In this document: positions 42,278 through 54,749 of the stretch, piece after piece
Layout of the letters: the number at the start of each line of letters is the position of its first letter
Position numbering within the stretch: position 1 is the stretch's first letter
The notes under the pieces: generated by a model
What the model saw: the letters and a program-made list of their open reading frames with translations, nothing else
Databases searched by the model: none
Told to the model about the DNA's origin: nothing
Source of the DNA: a virus
Taxonomy: Duplodnaviria > Caudoviricetes
Virus record (IMG/VR): IMGVR_UViG_3300020599_000094
Location: 1 to 54,797 of that record
Reading direction: 5' to 3' (one strand)
Length of the DNA stretch: 54,797 bases
Translations under genes and position numbers: made by a program

Positions 42278-42364
42278 CAGCCCTTAATCCCCCTCTTACA
42301 CACGCGAGACCCCAACCCCATCGCCGCTGACACTCAGCGCTGCGATTTTCATGTGAGGACAACC

Positions 42365-42607
42365 ATGGATATTCAAGTCGGGCGCACTTACCGCGCCAAG
42401 AGGCCTCGAAACAGCGGCGGACTGGTCAATGACCGCACAGTTCTATGGGTGGACTCGTTCGGAATGATCGTTCAATACTACGGCCCGAGCGAGGCACACG
42501 GACGCCGCTATCCCAAAGTCAGTCGAGACGAATTCGAGAAATGGGCTGATCGCGACGTTACTGATGAACTGCCGAGCGGCGAGTATGCCAACTGGCCGGT
42601 CAAGTGA
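42365..42607 (+). CDS. Hypothetical protein
   Basis: GAGG RBS; 80 aa. Confidence 0.65.
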   Translation: MDIQVGRTYRAKRPRNSGGLVNDRTVLWVDSFGMIVQYYGPSEAHGRRYPKVSRDEFEKWADRDVTDELPSGEYANWPVK

Positions 42608-42633
42608 CTGCGCCAGTTGACAAGGAGAACAAG

Positions 42634-42876
42634 ATGGAACACAACGACGGCGGCCCGGCATTCCCCTGGGGCGAGCACGGCCAGATATTAGGCGGCATGT
42701 CCCTGCGTGACTACTTCGCAGCGAAGGCGATGCCGACCTTTATCGACTTGTGCGCTCCGGAAATTTGGAATCAGGCAAACGCTTACGGCGCCAAAATTGA
42801 CAACACACTGATGGCAGTGAAGGCGGCGTACTGCGTAGCTGACGCCATGCTCAAGGTCCGAGGAACCCAACCATGA
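42634..42876 (+). CDS. Conserved phage protein (GGPAFP...GMSLRDYFAAKAM family)
   Basis: Recognisable motif ending AY.VADAML. Confidence 0.8.
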   Translation: MEHNDGGPAFPWGEHGQILGGMSLRDYFAAKAMPTFIDLCAPEIWNQANAYGAKIDNTLMAVKAAYCVADAMLKVRGTQP

Positions 42877-43193
42877 CCACTGAAACCATACTGACGCCCG
42901 CGCAAATAGAAGAGCTGTCTGCGAAGCACCTTTGGGCGCATGCACAATTCGTGGGCGCCGGGGATGTGCATATCGAGGGCGACGAGGCTTTCGCTCGCGC
43001 CATCGAGCAAGCCGTCCTGCAATCTCCTGAGATACAAGCGCTACGCAACATGCTTTACGAGGCCCGGTGCCAGCTTCCCTTGGCGGCGCAGTTCTGGAAT
43101 GAAGACGATGACCAAGATCGCTCCAGGCGGAACGTGCAGCATGTCATGGGCCTGATCAAACGAATCGACTCCGCACTGGAGAAACAGCCATGA
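42873..43193 (+). CDS. Hypothetical protein
   Basis: ATGA coupling; FARAIEQAVL motif. Confidence 0.65.
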   Translation: MTTETILTPAQIEELSAKHLWAHAQFVGAGDVHIEGDEAFARAIEQAVLQSPEIQALRNMLYEARCQLPLAAQFWNEDDDQDRSRRNVQHVMGLIKRIDSALEKQP

Positions 43194-43348
43194 GCACCAC
43201 ACAAGCAATCTCGGTTTTTCTGGCTTACCCGCTCTATCTAATATTTTTGGTTAGCGCCATCTATATGGCATTCAAGGACAGGTACAGCGAAGGGTCTTTC
43301 TTCATGTTGTTCGCTGTCATGCTTTTTTTAATCGTGAGGTTGCCATGA
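43190..43348 (+). CDS. 52-aa two-TM membrane protein (not in ORF track)
   Basis: MSTTQAISVFLAYPLYLIFLVSAIYMAFKDRYSEGSFFMLFAVMLFLIVRLP; ATGA overlaps at both ends. Confidence 0.7.
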   Translation: MSTTQAISVFLAYPLYLIFLVSAIYMAFKDRYSEGSFFMLFAVMLFLIVRLP

Positions 43349-43662
43349 GCAAGGCAACGATGCCCTCCCCTTCCGCCTATCTCTACACCACCCCAAGCGG
43401 CGCCCGAGTAGTAGACCTAAAGCGCGTCGACCTCGATACACCGGGCCTGGCGATATCGGAGCTCATCACCACCACCCAAGCCGAAGCCTACGCTGATGCG
43501 GTGCGGCGCGAAGCCCTGGAGGAAGCTGCCCAAGCATGTGAGGCTCGCATTGGCACAGGCTGCCCGGGCATCGGCACCGAAGAGTACGACCAAGAGGCGC
43601 AAGAGTGCGCACAAGCCATCCGCGCTCTAATCCCACCCACCAAAAACGAGGCCGAAGAATGA
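43345..43662 (+). CDS. Hypothetical protein
   Basis: REALEEAAQACE...CAQAIRAL phage motif. Confidence 0.7.
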   Translation: MSKATMPSPSAYLYTTPSGARVVDLKRVDLDTPGLAISELITTTQAEAYADAVRREALEEAAQACEARIGTGCPGIGTEEYDQEAQECAQAIRALIPPTKNEAEE

Positions 43663-43982
43663 GCTTCTACGAATGCAAGAAATGCGGCGCCATACCCGGC
43701 GTGACGGCTTGTTGCGCAGATAAGCCCAGGGAAGTACAGCAGTGGATCAGCGTTGAGGATCGTCTGCCCGAGAAAGTCTCTAACAATTGGCCTCAGGTGC
43801 TGGCGTTTTGGCATACAAGCGATCCAGATTATGAGCCGGGAGGAATGGACGCAAGCTGGTTCGATGGTCGTCATTGGCAGGCATCCAACGGCGAGATGGA
43901 CTACCACGGCAGCCGCCGCGTGACGCACTGGATGCCCCTACCCGCCCCACCCATTCCCGGCCCGGCCAGCCAAACCAAATAG
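43659..43982 (+). CDS. DUF551 family protein
   Basis: WISVEDRLP...VTHWMPLPAPP. Confidence 0.85.
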   Translation: MSFYECKKCGAIPGVTACCADKPREVQQWISVEDRLPEKVSNNWPQVLAFWHTSDPDYEPGGMDASWFDGRHWQASNGEMDYHGSRRVTHWMPLPAPPIPGPASQTK

Positions 43983-44925
43983 AACAATTTTGCAGCACGT
44001 CCGCCCACGTTACGGGTCTATGTCGGCGTCACCCCTCCCGCCAGAAAGCAGGGGCCAGCAACCAAGGAGAAAGCCATGCTCACCGATGCATCGTAGCGGC
44101 GTAATCCGCTGAATCCCTGAGCATACGGGCGCAGAAAGCCGGGCGACATCGGCATGGGTTCAGACTTGCCCGACGGTTGGGGAGTACCCACCCCCGCTAA
44201 CCGGAAGACGGCACACATAGACTAAGGAACGCGAGCCTGGGGCAAACAACCCACGCGCACAGGCCCATGCCGGACATGGTTAAAGCCGGACTCCCCTGCT
44301 CTCGGGTCGGTTCCGAGAGTAGGGCCATCAAGTATCCACATTGTGCCGCCCGCCTAGCCGTTCCGGGAGGTAAGAGCGAAGGCTGAACCGCAAGGGGAAA
44401 ATTTCGCCGCCAGTGTGGATTCTTGATGGCGGGCAGTACGCGCAGGCGATGCGCAGACCGGTAGACGGGTGACCCGCACCCGAAAGCCGCGAGCATGACG
44501 ACGTGGTGATCATGCAAGCCGGGATCGCATCCGGCGCCATCACTTCCGCCCTGGCGAAGAGAAAGGCCAGGACCATCATCGAAGCGGCGGGCAAGGCACG
44601 CGGTCTTGTGCGGTTGAGCGAACCGAGGGGCATGGATGCTACCCGGCGATAGCGGCCCTCGGCTGGTAACCAATCCAGCCCGCTTCGATGATGGTAAACG
44701 GCACAACAGTCAACAGCCATACGCCAGCATGTTTTGCCGTTCATGCTGAGGCTCAATCGAAGCGGATGATGGCGCGGGTTGGCGTGATTCACCGCCCGCC
44801 GTAAGTACGCAACGGGATTGAATCCGTTGGGGCCAGTGCAGCTTCGCGTATGCCTCCACGATACGGGGCACCCCATTCCCAGGCCCGCGCATTCGCCGCG
44901 GCCCTCTTCCTCTTTGGAGGCTCCC
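43983..44925 (+). ncRNA. Cluster of putative structured non-coding RNAs, including tRNA-shaped units
   Basis: About 940 nt gap in an otherwise tightly coupled operon; 20-bp and 16-bp inverted repeats; repeated T-arm-like hairpins. Confidence 0.55.
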
Positions 44926-45222
44926 ATGTTGATAGAACAAGAATCCCGCCTCAATGGCGCGGGCTGGATGCCTACGCGCCCATCTACCACCGAAGAAGTC
45001 ATGCGCGTACTTGAGGGCACGGCCGTTGAAGATGGCGCCCACCGAAACGCTTGCCAGTGGTCGCTGATCCTTTTTGATTATCCCGACTTCGTCGCTGACA
45101 TGCCGATCGACGCAAAGCGCCAACTATTCGAGCTGATCGCCAACAACAAGGGCACTCGATACGAGGCGATCCGCAACTACGTCGTGGATGCGATCGATGC
45201 CATCTTGGAGGAAGACTTATGA
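44926..45222 (+). CDS. Hypothetical acidic protein
   Basis: GGAGG RBS; 98 aa. Confidence 0.65.
   Translation: MLIEQESRLNGAGWMPTRPSTTEEVMRVLEGTAVEDGAHRNACQWSLILFDYPDFVADMPIDAKRQLFELIANNKGTRYEAIRNYVVDAIDAILEEDL

Positions 45223-54670: not shown

Positions 54671-54749
<79 letters not shown>

What the first reader, a model, noticed from the sequence alone, without database searches (positions are those of the whole stretch)
44424..44829. Tandem tRNA-shaped RNA units with covarying kissing loops in the early-left operon
Seen: three hairpins share the form stem-GG[8-nt loop ending AT]CC-stem. They are GCCGG-GATCGCAT-CCGGC (44518-35), GCTGG-TAACCAAT-CCAGC (44662-79) and CAACGG-GATTGAAT-CCGTTG (44810-29). 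Each loop is complementary to a segment 50-80 nt upstream in a small D-arm-like hairpin: GCGAT in GCGC-AGGCGAT-GCGC (44440-54), GGTTG (44612-16) and CAATC in GCT-CAATCGA-AGC (44751-63). The loop sequences differ but the pairing is kept. In units 1 and 2 the 5-bp hairpin abuts a closing helix with no gap (7 bp TGATGGC/GCCATCA; 16 bp perfect), which is acceptor-plus-T-arm geometry. There is no TTC loop, anticodon arm or CCA. Unit 3 has a poor closing stem, and unit 2 has a competing hairpin (44611-25). Known precedent: P1 C4 and P4 CI are RNase P-processed cloverleaf phage RNAs, but these units do not look like them to me. Inference: a family of elbow-mimic scaffolds with variable middle arms, acting as sRNAs, decoys for tRNA-targeting defences, or processing signals.
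Basis: partly seen in the sequence, partly recalled or inferred. Interest (0 to 1): 0.8.

Follow-up and report, generated by a model that had tools for sequence, protein, structure and literature searches.

The report
Phage array of tRNA-like RNA cassettes
A 0.9-kb gene-free stretch in a temperate phage's early operon is a string of folded RNA modules, some built like tRNAs with a private loop-to-loop "elbow", and related prophages shuffle these modules and put real tRNA-like genes in the same slots.

Summary
The hairpins and complementarities are at the stated coordinates. They lie in a 943-nt ORF-poor gap (43983-44925) between a DUF551 gene and a small gene followed by recT and exo.

No Rfam family or tRNA matches the gap. 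It is nevertheless not a one-off: 26 of 151 sampled Alcaligenaceae genomes hold pieces of it, always as modules whose order and presence vary.

- **Unit 1 is confirmed as a family of 15 units.** Each has a closing helix TGATGGnn/nnCCATCA, a D-like hairpin, a variable middle, and a T-like hairpin abutting the 3' strand.
- **The D- and T-like loops covary.** There are five alleles, and 8 of 10 distinct loop pairs share at least 5 Watson-Crick bases (permutation p about 5e-5).
- **Unit 2 is partly confirmed.** Its long helix and abutting hairpin are a second cassette type, with 21 different inner helices that all stay complementary. Its claimed loop pairing is not kept in homologues.
- **Unit 3 cannot be tested.**

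In homologous arrays the same slots hold Rfam-level tRNA matches, one with the unit-1 acceptor sequence.

The best reading is an array of tRNA-mimic RNA cassettes. Function (decoy, processing signal or oligomer) is inferred, not shown. No RNA data were available.

The parts
43983..44925 (+). Whole untranslated, structured array between the DUF551 gene (43605-43982) and the 98-aa gene (44926-45222)
   Evidence: There is no codon-position GC periodicity over most of it. Its ORFs have no Pfam hit. The fold z-score is -3.4. Pieces occur in 26 of 151 Alcaligenaceae genomes. The close relative L002 lacks 42361-44905 altogether.
44022..44227 (+). Module M1: hairpin 44032-54, invariant AAGGAG (44064-69) plus ATG, and a 4-7-codon mini-ORF (44076-96), followed by a 3' structured domain
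   Evidence: Six homologues are 76-96% identical. 5 of 33 predicted pairs show changes on both sides, and the Shine-Dalgarno sequence and ATG are invariant.
44230..44290 (+). Module H: small double-pseudoknot candidate. The loop CCGG of the CCATG/CATGG hairpin pairs with the downstream CCGG.
   Evidence: Five other loci carry it, with compensatory changes GGGG/CCCC and CCCGG/CCGGG. It stands at the 5' edge of arrays. This was read by eye and not scored.
44294..44324 (+). 12-bp hairpin abutting the first CCATCA
   Evidence: Inverted repeat I10; present in the MFE fold.
44324..44430 (+). Cassette U0: 20-bp closing helix (CCATCAAG.../...CTTGATGG) with a conserved U.U mismatch, a conserved interior and a variable inner hairpin
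   Evidence: - Pair probability is about 1.
- Five homologues show compensatory changes at two pairs.
- Metagenome variants 44333 T>A, 44339 C>T and 44341 T>C all keep or improve pairing.
44424..44542 (+).
- Closing helix TGATGGCG/CGCCATCA.
- D-like hairpin 44440-54.
- Two middle arms.
- T-like hairpin 44518-35 with no gap to the 3' strand.
- Loop pair GCGAT 44446-50 with ATCGC 44524-28.
   Evidence: When cut out alone it folds as described. It belongs to a family of 15 units with covarying closing helix, stems and loop pair.
44550..44571 (+). Hairpin B: CCTGGC-GAAGAGAAAG-GCCAGG, abutting ACCATCA
   Evidence: Pair probability 0.99. The same hairpin lies next to ACCATCA in L219 and L192.
44572..44695 (+).
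   Evidence: - Searches show the helix and hairpin.
- Homologues keep the helix with compensatory changes while their interiors differ.
- One contig holds both strands with 139 other letters between them.
- 21 distinct helices of this type were found.
44697..44741 (+). Hairpin AACGGCACAACA/TGTTTTGCCGTT
   Evidence: Inverted repeat I13. Not examined in homologues.
44753..44873 (+). 3' module:
- Block 5 (CAATCGAAGCGGATG, 44753-67).
- Block 6 (TGCAGCTTCGCG..CACGATACGGGG, 44837-70).
- CGAAGC 44758-63 can pair with GCTTCG 44842-47.
   Evidence: Blocks 5 and 6 are conserved in L083, L125, L126 and L188 while the spacer varies from 30 to 70 nt. The pairing never varies, so it is neither supported nor refuted.
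44882..44903 (+). GC-rich hairpin followed by a CT-rich tract, just before the ribosome-binding site of the next gene
   Evidence: Read from the sequence. The terminator scan did not call it. Homology with L002 resumes at 44905.

Best explanation
The gap 43983-44925 is a transcribed but untranslated array of self-folding RNA cassettes. Temperate phages of Alcaligenaceae carry such arrays just upstream of their recombination genes.

**Two cassette types are tRNA mimics.**
- **Type U1.** A 7-9-bp acceptor-like helix (UGAUGGnn/nnCCAUCA) stacks directly on a 5-6-bp T-like hairpin, giving 12-14 bp as in the tRNA acceptor/T minihelix. It also has a D-like hairpin, and a 5-6-bp Watson-Crick loop-loop pair stands where tRNAs have the D-loop/T-loop elbow.
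- **Type U2/U0.** A longer helix, CCAUCA plus 8-14 variable pairs, encloses a variable interior. In U2 and most of its homologues a T-like hairpin abuts the 3' strand.

Cassettes are joined head to tail through the shared CCAUCA/UGAUGG strands, so neighbouring helices compete. Recombination at these short repeats shuffles, deletes and swaps cassettes. Real or near-real tRNAs can occupy the same slots.

**Inferred mechanism.** The early transcript is cut into discrete tRNA-sized RNAs by the host's tRNA- and duplex-processing enzymes (RNase P/Z, RNase III). The mimics then occupy host factors that bind tRNA. The most likely targets are tRNA-cleaving defence nucleases, as decoys beside replacement tRNAs.

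**Shown versus inferred.** Shown: structure, family, covariation, modularity, tRNA co-residence and genomic position. Inferred: transcription as RNA, processing, and the decoy role.
For: **No known family or coding signal**
- No coding signal and no known family.

**Homologues**
- 26 of 151 sampled Alcaligenaceae genomes match the gap at E <= 0.001.
- For the unit-1 region, 67 of 401 match at E <= 0.01, of which 16 have E <= 1e-4.
- Four further IMG/VR or MAG loci carry related arrays: L083, L130, L126/L180 and L125.

**U1 family**
- 14 units were found by descriptor, plus L183.
- Closing-helix position 7 is U-A in 7 units and C-G in 7. Position 8 is G-C in 7 and A-U in 3.
- D stems vary with compensation: GCGC/GCGC, GCGAA/TTCGC, ATGCCC/GGGTAT, GCGGA/TCCGC, GCCAG/CTGGC.
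- T stems vary with compensation: GCCGG, GTCGG/CCGAC, GCTGG/CCAGC, GCGGG/CCCGC.
- Loop pairs come in five alleles: GCGAT:ATCGC, GGCGA:TCGCC, GCTGA:TCAGC, GGTGAT:ATCACC and GCAAA:TTTGC.
- 8 of 10 distinct loop pairs have at least 5 complementary bases, with permutation p = 5e-5.
- Seven descriptor hits in unrelated loci reach only 2-3.
- The smallest units are 87-91 nt.

**U2/U0 type**
- 21 distinct inner helices all stay complementary.
- The control gives 0 of 1832.

**tRNA link**
- L187 2383-2506 matches Rfam tRNA at 39.9 bits. Its acceptor is GAUGGUG/CACCAUC, and it starts right after a U2-type 3' strand.
- L184 1806-1910 matches at 46.6 bits and sits inside CATCAAT/ATTGATG.
- Both lie on the array strand.

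**Modularity**
- Module order is permuted between the window and L083.
- Contig joints fall at the GCCATCA repeats, and interiors are swapped.

**Position**
- Arrays lie upstream of RecT, ERF, a PD-(D/E)XK nuclease or an AAA_24 protein in different prophages.

**Background from papers**
- tRNA-cleaving defences, and rescue by phage tRNAs, are described in PMC11464382, PMC11555353 and PMC12409363 (search listing and abstract starts).
- PMC12445682 is similar, and adds that P2 OLD is switched on by the phage's RecBCD inhibitor (abstract and passages).
Against: - **No RNA data.** No listed sequencing run is RNA, so transcription, ends and processing are unshown.
- **Strand not settled by wobble pairs.** On the array strand the cassette helices hold 6 G.U and 5 A.C positions. 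The strand rests only on operon direction and on co-orientation with the tRNA and Proteo-phage-1 matches.
- **Unit-1 closing helix is outcompeted.** In the window's equilibrium fold it loses to the 20-bp U0 helix (P 0 against about 1). From the 22 nt printed upstream of each U1 unit (read by eye), 11 of 14 units share TGATGG with what looks like an upstream cassette's 3' strand. The script's own partner search in that call failed, so this count is not computed.
- **Loop pairing is not universal.** L083 and L199 have no loop complement beyond 3 nt, and L183 has only 4.
- **Alleles are few and related.** The permutation test does not correct for shared descent.
- **Canonical tRNA features are missing.** The units have no T-loop or D-loop motifs, no anticodon arm and no CCA, and they score nothing with the tRNA model.
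- **The decoy idea has no direct support.** The window's phage encodes no canonical tRNA inside the array.
Confidence: 0.55

Rival explanations
1. The cassettes are cis-acting punctuation. Their long duplexes (U0, U2) and tRNA-like folds (U1) are RNase III and RNase P/Z cleavage signals. These signals cut the long early transcript, set the stability and dosage of the downstream recombination genes, and have no role as free RNAs.
For: - The array always sits inside an operon directly upstream of recombination genes.
- The 16-20-bp duplexes with a conserved U.U mismatch are of RNase III substrate size.
- The shared strands give mutually exclusive helices that could order the cleavages.
- tRNA-like processing signals are established elsewhere, for example plant mitochondrial t-elements and mascRNA (recalled, not from a call).
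Against: - One processing site would suffice, whereas arrays hold many different cassettes with conserved interiors.
- Diversification of the loop pair into five alleles is not needed for a cleavage signal.
- L002, a close relative with the same downstream gene, has no array at all.
Confidence: 0.2
2. The array, or its units, forms higher-order RNA assemblies. The covarying loop pairs are contacts between molecules or between units, as in the phage-borne ROOL and GOLLD RNAs, rather than intramolecular elbows.
For: - Covariation cannot tell pairing within a molecule from pairing between copies.
- In ROOL and GOLLD, kissing loops first inferred from covariation turned out to be bridges between chains. 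Those RNAs are encoded in phages and prophages, often near tRNA islands (PMC12286853, passages read).
- The gap is about 0.9 kb and densely structured.
Against: - Module order and content differ between arrays, unlike the fixed architecture of ornate RNAs.
- There is no Rfam match to ROOL, GOLLD or any other family.
- Units as small as 87 nt carry both loops.
Confidence: 0.1
3. The units are antisense regulators of the P1 C4 / P4 CI kind. One loop is the effector and the complementary loop is a target or decoy site in the same transcript. The alleles would then define phage-specific immunity or exclusion.
For: - The loop complements come in discrete alleles while the stems stay conserved.
- The units have a cloverleaf-like shape and lie in an early operon.
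- The C4/CI logic itself is recalled; only search listings were seen.
Against: - There is no match to the Rfam C4 model at E <= 10.
- Both partners are hairpin loops inside one 87-215-nt unit.
- No third complementary site near a ribosome-binding site was identified. The window is too large for 5-7-mers to be informative, so this was not tested formally.
Confidence: 0.07
4. The complementarity matters at the DNA level or not at all. The CCATCA/TGATGG repeats are recombination junctions, and the 'cassettes' are shuffled non-functional filler or decayed tRNA genes.
For: - Deletions and swaps fall exactly at the repeats.
- Wobble counts do not favour either strand.
- A close relative lacks the region.
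Against: - 21 different inner helices and five loop alleles keep complementarity while the sequences diverge beyond alignment. This needs selection on pairing.
- Orientation is constant in all 41 loci scored, so there is no inversion system.
- Interiors such as that of U0 are conserved.
Confidence: 0.06
5. The region encodes protein: the 49-aa ORF 44503-44652 or the minus-strand ORFs of 169 and 230 aa.
For: Weak codon-position GC bias over 44400-44670 in the frame of the 49-aa ORF.
Against: - None of the ORFs has a Pfam hit.
- There is no periodicity elsewhere in the gap.
- The segment under the 49-aa ORF is replaced by unrelated sequence in homologous units, while the flanking helices are kept.
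Confidence: 0.02

Closest known systems
Phage tRNA gene clusters and tRNA islands (including phage tRNAs that rescue tRNA-cleaving defences)
   Same: - Tandem, co-oriented, tRNA-sized folded units in a phage.
- An acceptor-like helix stacked on a T-like hairpin.
- Rfam-level tRNA matches sit in the same slots of homologous arrays.
   Different: - The window's units fail both the tRNA model and ARAGORN.
- They have no anticodon arm, no T-loop or D-loop motifs and no CCA.
- Their elbow is a 5-6-bp Watson-Crick loop pair with several alleles.
- Cassettes share junction strands.
P1/P7 C4 and P4 CI antisense RNAs (Rfam C4 family; RNase P-processed cloverleaf phage RNAs; recalled)
   Same: - Small cloverleaf-like phage RNAs inside an early transcript.
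- Loops complementary to other sites of the same transcript.
- Complements that differ between phages.
   Different: - No covariance-model match.
- Both complementary sites are loops within one unit.
- The units occur in arrays of several cassette types.
- No link to an immunity gene was seen.
ROOL and GOLLD large phage RNAs
   Same: - Phage or prophage location, often near tRNAs.
- Dense structure.
- Covarying kissing loops (PMC12286853).
   Different: - No model match.
- Architecture is not fixed: modules are permuted, deleted and swapped.
tRNA-like domains of bacterial Y RNAs (YrlA) and tRNA-like processing elements such as mascRNA and plant mitochondrial t-elements (recalled)
   Same: tRNA mimicry without decoding, presumably read by tRNA-binding enzymes.
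   Different: Those keep canonical T and D loops, whereas these replace them by a Watson-Crick kiss. No Rfam match was found. The context here is a phage array.
Proteo-phage-1 RNA motif (RF03044)
   Same: It occurs downstream in the same orientation in two homologous arrays, L191 and L205.
   Different: It is absent from the window and has a different fold.

Membership tests
tRNA (RF00005 / ARAGORN) | Match to the tRNA covariance model or a cloverleaf with an anticodon arm | tested here: not met
   There is no tRNA hit in 43700-45200 even at E <= 10. ARAGORN finds only tRNA-Met at 54671-54749. No unit-1 homologue is hit at E <= 1 in 16 loci.
tRNA (RF00005 / ARAGORN) | 7-bp acceptor coaxial with a 5-bp T stem, with no gap | tested here: met
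   All 14 U1 units have a 7-9-bp closing helix followed, with no gap, by a 5-7-bp hairpin stem.
tRNA (RF00005 / ARAGORN) | D-loop/T-loop tertiary contact through conserved GG and T-psi-C | tested here: not met
   The loops lack these motifs. A variable Watson-Crick complement stands in their place. Whether it gives an L shape is not testable here.
C4 antisense RNA (P1 C4 / P4 CI) | Match to the Rfam C4 model | tested here: not met
   The only match at E <= 10 in the region is rpfG, at E 1.1.
C4 antisense RNA (P1 C4 / P4 CI) | Loops complementary to target sites upstream of a regulated gene; RNase P processing | not testable with these tools
   Complementarity exists, but between two loops of one unit. 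Processing and targets need experiments.
ROOL / GOLLD ornate RNAs | Match to the family model and a conserved global architecture | tested here: not met
   No hit. Module order is permuted between arrays.
Proteo-phage-1 RNA (RF03044) | Match at the gathering score | tested here: not met
   Not in the window. Present in L191 (44.1 bits) and L205 (42.8 bits) beside related cassettes.
Invertible or site-specific DNA cassette systems (shufflon- or integron-like) | Segments found in both orientations between inverted repeats; dedicated recombinase adjacent | tested here: not met
   All module matches within a locus share one strand, and none of the 41 loci has mixed orientation. The only integrase is the phage's own, about 9 kb away.

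The most novel reading that the evidence does not exclude
Alcaligenaceae temperate phages carry a cassette system of orthogonal tRNA mimics.
- Each unit has a private Watson-Crick 'elbow', so that units in one transcript fold without cross-pairing.
- Slots are interchangeable with real tRNAs.
- The array is co-transcribed with the recombination and anti-RecBCD module because that module is what trips tRNA-cleaving abortive-infection nucleases.

The mimics would soak up or misdirect those nucleases, and the shared junction strands would let the phage population swap cassettes quickly in an arms race.
Probability: 0.2. Interest if true: 0.9.

Novelty: new variant of a known kind. Interest (0 to 1): 0.8.

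Why it matters
If the units are made as RNAs, they would be a natural example of tRNA architecture rebuilt with a programmable Watson-Crick elbow. They would also be a new class of phage non-coding RNA organised as exchangeable cassettes.

The class is absent from Rfam 15. It did not turn up in two literature searches (listings and abstract starts only).

It would give a concrete, testable candidate for RNA-based counter-defence against the growing list of tRNA-targeting immune systems. The loop alleles would also be a ready-made set of orthogonal kissing pairs for RNA design.

Even the conservative reading is useful for phage annotation. It explains a recurring 'empty' 0.6-1.3-kb gap upstream of recombination genes in a whole bacterial family's prophages.

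Tried and rejected
**Searches that found nothing useful**
- blastn of the gap against 50,697 phage records found no match.
- The 81 loci fetched up to that point (L002 and 80 fetched through the DUF551 neighbour) gave no match to the gap.
- The block-6 pattern in 401 Burkholderiales genomes matched exactly only in G001. The 8 hits with two mismatches compare with 5 control hits, so they are about chance level.
- The metagenome pattern scan gave 6 stretches: 3 duplicates of known loci and 3 chance hits in coding DNA.
- A 15-mer from block 1 hit 41 viral stretches, of which only L130 is related.
- The search of earlier findings returned nothing three times.

**Expression**
- No RNA holder is listed among the 24 runs. 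Parts of the gap without contig cover carry no weight.

**Covariance model**
- MAFFT alignments of the units put the D and T hairpins in the wrong register.
- I therefore built no covariance model and ran no count of structure pairs. Pair tallies come from my own anchor-based scripts.

**Context proteins**
- A PHROGs scan of 10 flanking ORFs gave two weak unknown-function hits only.

**Structural ideas dropped**
- Helix I3 (44076-93/44107-24) is rejected. Variants 44124 T>C, and 44121 G>A together with 44079 C>G, break it.
- Using G.U against A.C counts to fix the strand is inconclusive (6 against 5).
- My first upstream-partner script had an index error, so I read the upstream strands by eye from its printout.

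**Coding**
- A coding reading of the 49-aa and minus-strand ORFs is rejected.

**Not consulted**
- Supplements of the cited papers were not consulted.
Full report
**Setting**

The window is a 54.8-kb IMG/VR virus record. From about 40750 onward a plus-strand operon runs through the following:
- small genes;
- a DUF551 gene (43605-43982);
- a 98-aa gene (44926-45222);
- RecT;
- a YqaJ exonuclease;
- a helicase-like protein;
- a DNA methylase;
- an integrase.

The operon ends beside tRNA-Met. The finding lies in the 943-nt gap 43983-44925.

The gap shows no codon-position GC periodicity, except for a weak signal over 44400-44670. Its ORFs have no Pfam match. It folds better than dinucleotide shuffles on both strands, with z -3.4 and -3.1. 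ARAGORN and Rfam, at gathering scores and at E <= 10, find nothing in it.

**Check of the observation**

The description is accurate as far as it goes. Whether it means anything had to come from relatives.

**Finding relatives**

Several direct searches failed:
- a phage-database search;
- 80 loci fetched through the DUF551 neighbour;
- the close relative L002, which shares the downstream gene at 92% but lacks 42361-44905 entirely.

The RecT gene led to L083, an Alcaligenaceae MAG prophage with its own 1.25-kb ORF-poor gap. That gap shares four short collinear blocks with the window, and the sequence between the blocks cannot be aligned. Patterns from those blocks brought in L125, L126/L180 and L130.

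The decisive step was a BLAST of the gap against a sample of the family of L083's genome. 26 of 151 genomes hold pieces of it. A second search with the unit-1 region matched 67 of 401 genomes at E <= 0.01, 16 of them at E <= 1e-4.

In an order-wide sample of 401 genomes, the block-6 pattern matched exactly in one genome only. As far as these searches go, the element is concentrated in Alcaligenaceae.

**Modularity**

Matches are always to modules, and their order and presence differ between loci. For example, the module at 44250-44430 lies after block 1 in the window but before it in L083.

Contigs from four public DNA runs hold pieces that break at module edges:
- one joins 44318 to 44539, between the two GCCATCA repeats;
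- one keeps both strands of the unit-2 helix but has 139 other letters in place of the 87 between them.

Within every locus, all modules face the same way. None of the 41 loci scored has mixed orientation.

**Unit 1 is a real family**

A descriptor search, plus one locus from a regular-expression search, gave 15 units. Each unit has this layout:
- a closing helix TGATGGnn/nnCCATCA;
- a linker;
- a D-like hairpin;
- a variable middle of 33-164 nt;
- a T-like hairpin with no gap to the 3' strand.

When cut out alone, each folds this way. The smallest units are 87 and 91 nt.

All three helices covary. Details are:
- Closing-helix position 7 is U-A in 7 units and C-G in 7. Position 8 is G-C in 7 and A-U in 3.
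- Several D and T stems differ on both sides.

The D-like and T-like loops are complementary in five different alleles. 8 of 10 distinct loop pairs share at least 5 Watson-Crick bases. Re-dealing partners reaches that in 5e-5 of trials, and shuffling letters reached it in 0 of 20000 trials.

Outside that test:
- L197 has TGCGA/TCGCA, read by eye.
- L183, an apparent recombinant, has 4 complementary bases.
- L083 and L199 have none beyond 3.

Descriptor hits in unrelated loci reach only 2-3. These alleles are few and related by descent, so the p-value overstates their independence.

**Unit 2 is a different cassette**

Its 16-bp helix belongs to a type CCATCA-N(8-14)...N'-TGATGG, usually with a T-like hairpin abutting the 3' strand. 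I found 21 distinct helices of this type on the array strand. Their inner sequences differ but stay complementary.

None of 1832 CATCA/TGATG pairs in 1.35 Mb of unrelated loci reaches 12 bp, against 38 of 234 in family loci.

U0 (44324-44430) is of this type. Homologues and metagenome variants change its pairs compensatorily, and one variant repairs a mismatch.

L192's abutting hairpin could not be resolved.

For unit 3, the conserved parts are blocks 5 and 6, while the hairpin and its claimed partner are specific to the window. The shared form 'loop of 8 ending AT' is not conserved.

**Link to tRNAs**

Rfam scans of the homologous loci found tRNA-model matches inside the arrays, on the array strand:
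- **L187 2383-2506** scores 39.9 bits. It has canonical D and T loops and the acceptor stem GAUGGUG/CACCAUC, which is the unit-1 closing helix. It begins immediately after a U2-type 3' strand.
- **L184 1806-1910** scores 46.6 bits and has a 35-nt extra arm. It sits inside CATCAAT/ATTGATG, in a U0/U2-type slot.

ARAGORN calls neither of these. It does call tRNA-Arg(TCT) near the L183 array and an 89-nt tRNA-Lys(CTT) in L204, which scores 27.7 bits, below Rfam's cut-off. Proteo-phage-1 RNA follows the cassettes in L191 and L205.

The slots of these arrays are therefore interchangeable between tRNA-like genes and mimics.

**Shared strands**

In the window, TGATGGC 44424-30 is both the 3' end of the 20-bp U0 helix and the 5' strand of unit 1. 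At equilibrium U0 wins, with P about 1 against 0.

From the upstream 22 nt printed, 11 of 14 U1 units begin on what looks like the 3' strand of an upstream cassette. This was read by eye after the script's own partner search failed through an index error.

Unit 1 can therefore close only after cleavage, or by strand exchange. This is an open point against a simple reading. It also hints at ordered processing or switching.

**Strand**

Wobble counts do not decide the strand, with 6 G.U against 5 A.C positions. The plus strand is favoured for three reasons:
- the direction of the operon;
- the constant orientation of the modules;
- the co-oriented tRNA and Proteo-phage-1 matches.

**Position**

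Arrays lie upstream of non-orthologous recombination genes in different prophages. These are RecT in the window, ERF in L213, a PD-(D/E)XK nuclease in L214 and an AAA_24 protein in L217. The window and L213 also have DUF551 upstream.

**Interpretation**

Shown:
- a family-restricted, shuffled array of structured cassettes;
- two cassette types with tRNA-like geometry;
- covariation in the helices and in one loop-loop pair;
- tRNA co-residence.

Inferred:
- the cassettes act as RNA;
- they are excised by tRNA- and duplex-processing enzymes;
- they work as tRNA mimics.

I favour decoys or companions to replacement tRNAs against tRNA-cleaving defences. Such defences, and rescue by phage tRNAs, are well documented (PMC11464382, PMC11555353 and PMC12409363, listing and abstract starts). 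One of them, P2 OLD, is triggered by the phage's RecBCD inhibitor, which belongs to the same operon neighbourhood (PMC12445682, abstract and passages). This link is an analogy, not evidence.

The rivals are:
- pure processing punctuation;
- intermolecular assembly as in ROOL and GOLLD, whose covariation-predicted kissing loops proved to be bridges between chains (PMC12286853, passages);
- C4/CI-like antisense control;
- DNA-level junk;
- protein coding.

**Novelty**

There is no Rfam 15 family for any of these cassettes. Two literature searches found no description: one search returned 0 papers, and one search returned 39 papers of which 15 were listed and seen only as titles and abstract starts.

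I file this as a new variant of a known kind (phage tRNA-like RNAs and tRNA islands) rather than as categorically new.

Noticed in passing
window 44230-44290; L194, L195, L198, L202, L203 near position 1500: A roughly 55-nt motif with two candidate pseudoknots. The hairpin CCATG-CCGGA-CATGG has a loop that pairs with a downstream CCGG, and there are compensatory variants GGGG/CCCC and CCCGG/CCGGG. It has no Rfam match and stands at the 5' edge of arrays.
   Followed up: partly
window 44064-44096 and the homologues aligned in A6: An invariant AAGGAG plus ATG is followed by a 4-7-codon mini-ORF. The mini-ORF's sequence varies but its start and stop positions are kept (MLTDAS*, MSGDTT*, MGGDAT*, MLGS*). 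It may be a leader peptide or a ribosome-loading site inside the untranslated array.
   Followed up: partly
L184 1806-1910: A tRNA-model match (46.6 bits) with canonical D and T arms, a 4-bp anticodon stem, the loop TCTTTGT and a 35-nt extra arm. ARAGORN does not call it. It may be an aberrant Lys(UUU)-like tRNA.
   Followed up: no
Cassette helices of the CATCAAG-T-ATCC.. type (window 44333:44421, L183, L187, L221): A U.U mismatch at the tenth pair recurs in four different helix alleles, and one metagenome variant turns it into A-U. It may be a recognition feature.
   Followed up: no
L188 1073-1146 (-): A Burkholderiales-2 RNA (RF02917, 77.2 bits) lies about 350 nt from a 98% copy of window 44753-44847, on the opposite strand.
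   Followed up: no
L125 1291-2121 (-): The gene downstream of the short block-5/6 module encodes a protein with a long run of 'GNA(R/Q)V(Y/S)' repeats.
   Followed up: no
window 44556-65 and 44905-10: The purine loop GAAGAG of hairpin B is complementary to CTCTTC just upstream of the next gene's ribosome-binding site. At 6 nt this is within chance expectation.
   Followed up: no
L083 3683-3811, L130, L180, L204 after 1801: A conserved 3' module closes several arrays just before the next gene's ribosome-binding site. It consists of TTTAAGCAGTAGCG...CGCTACTACTTAAA enclosing about 70 nt. The window lacks it.
   Followed up: no
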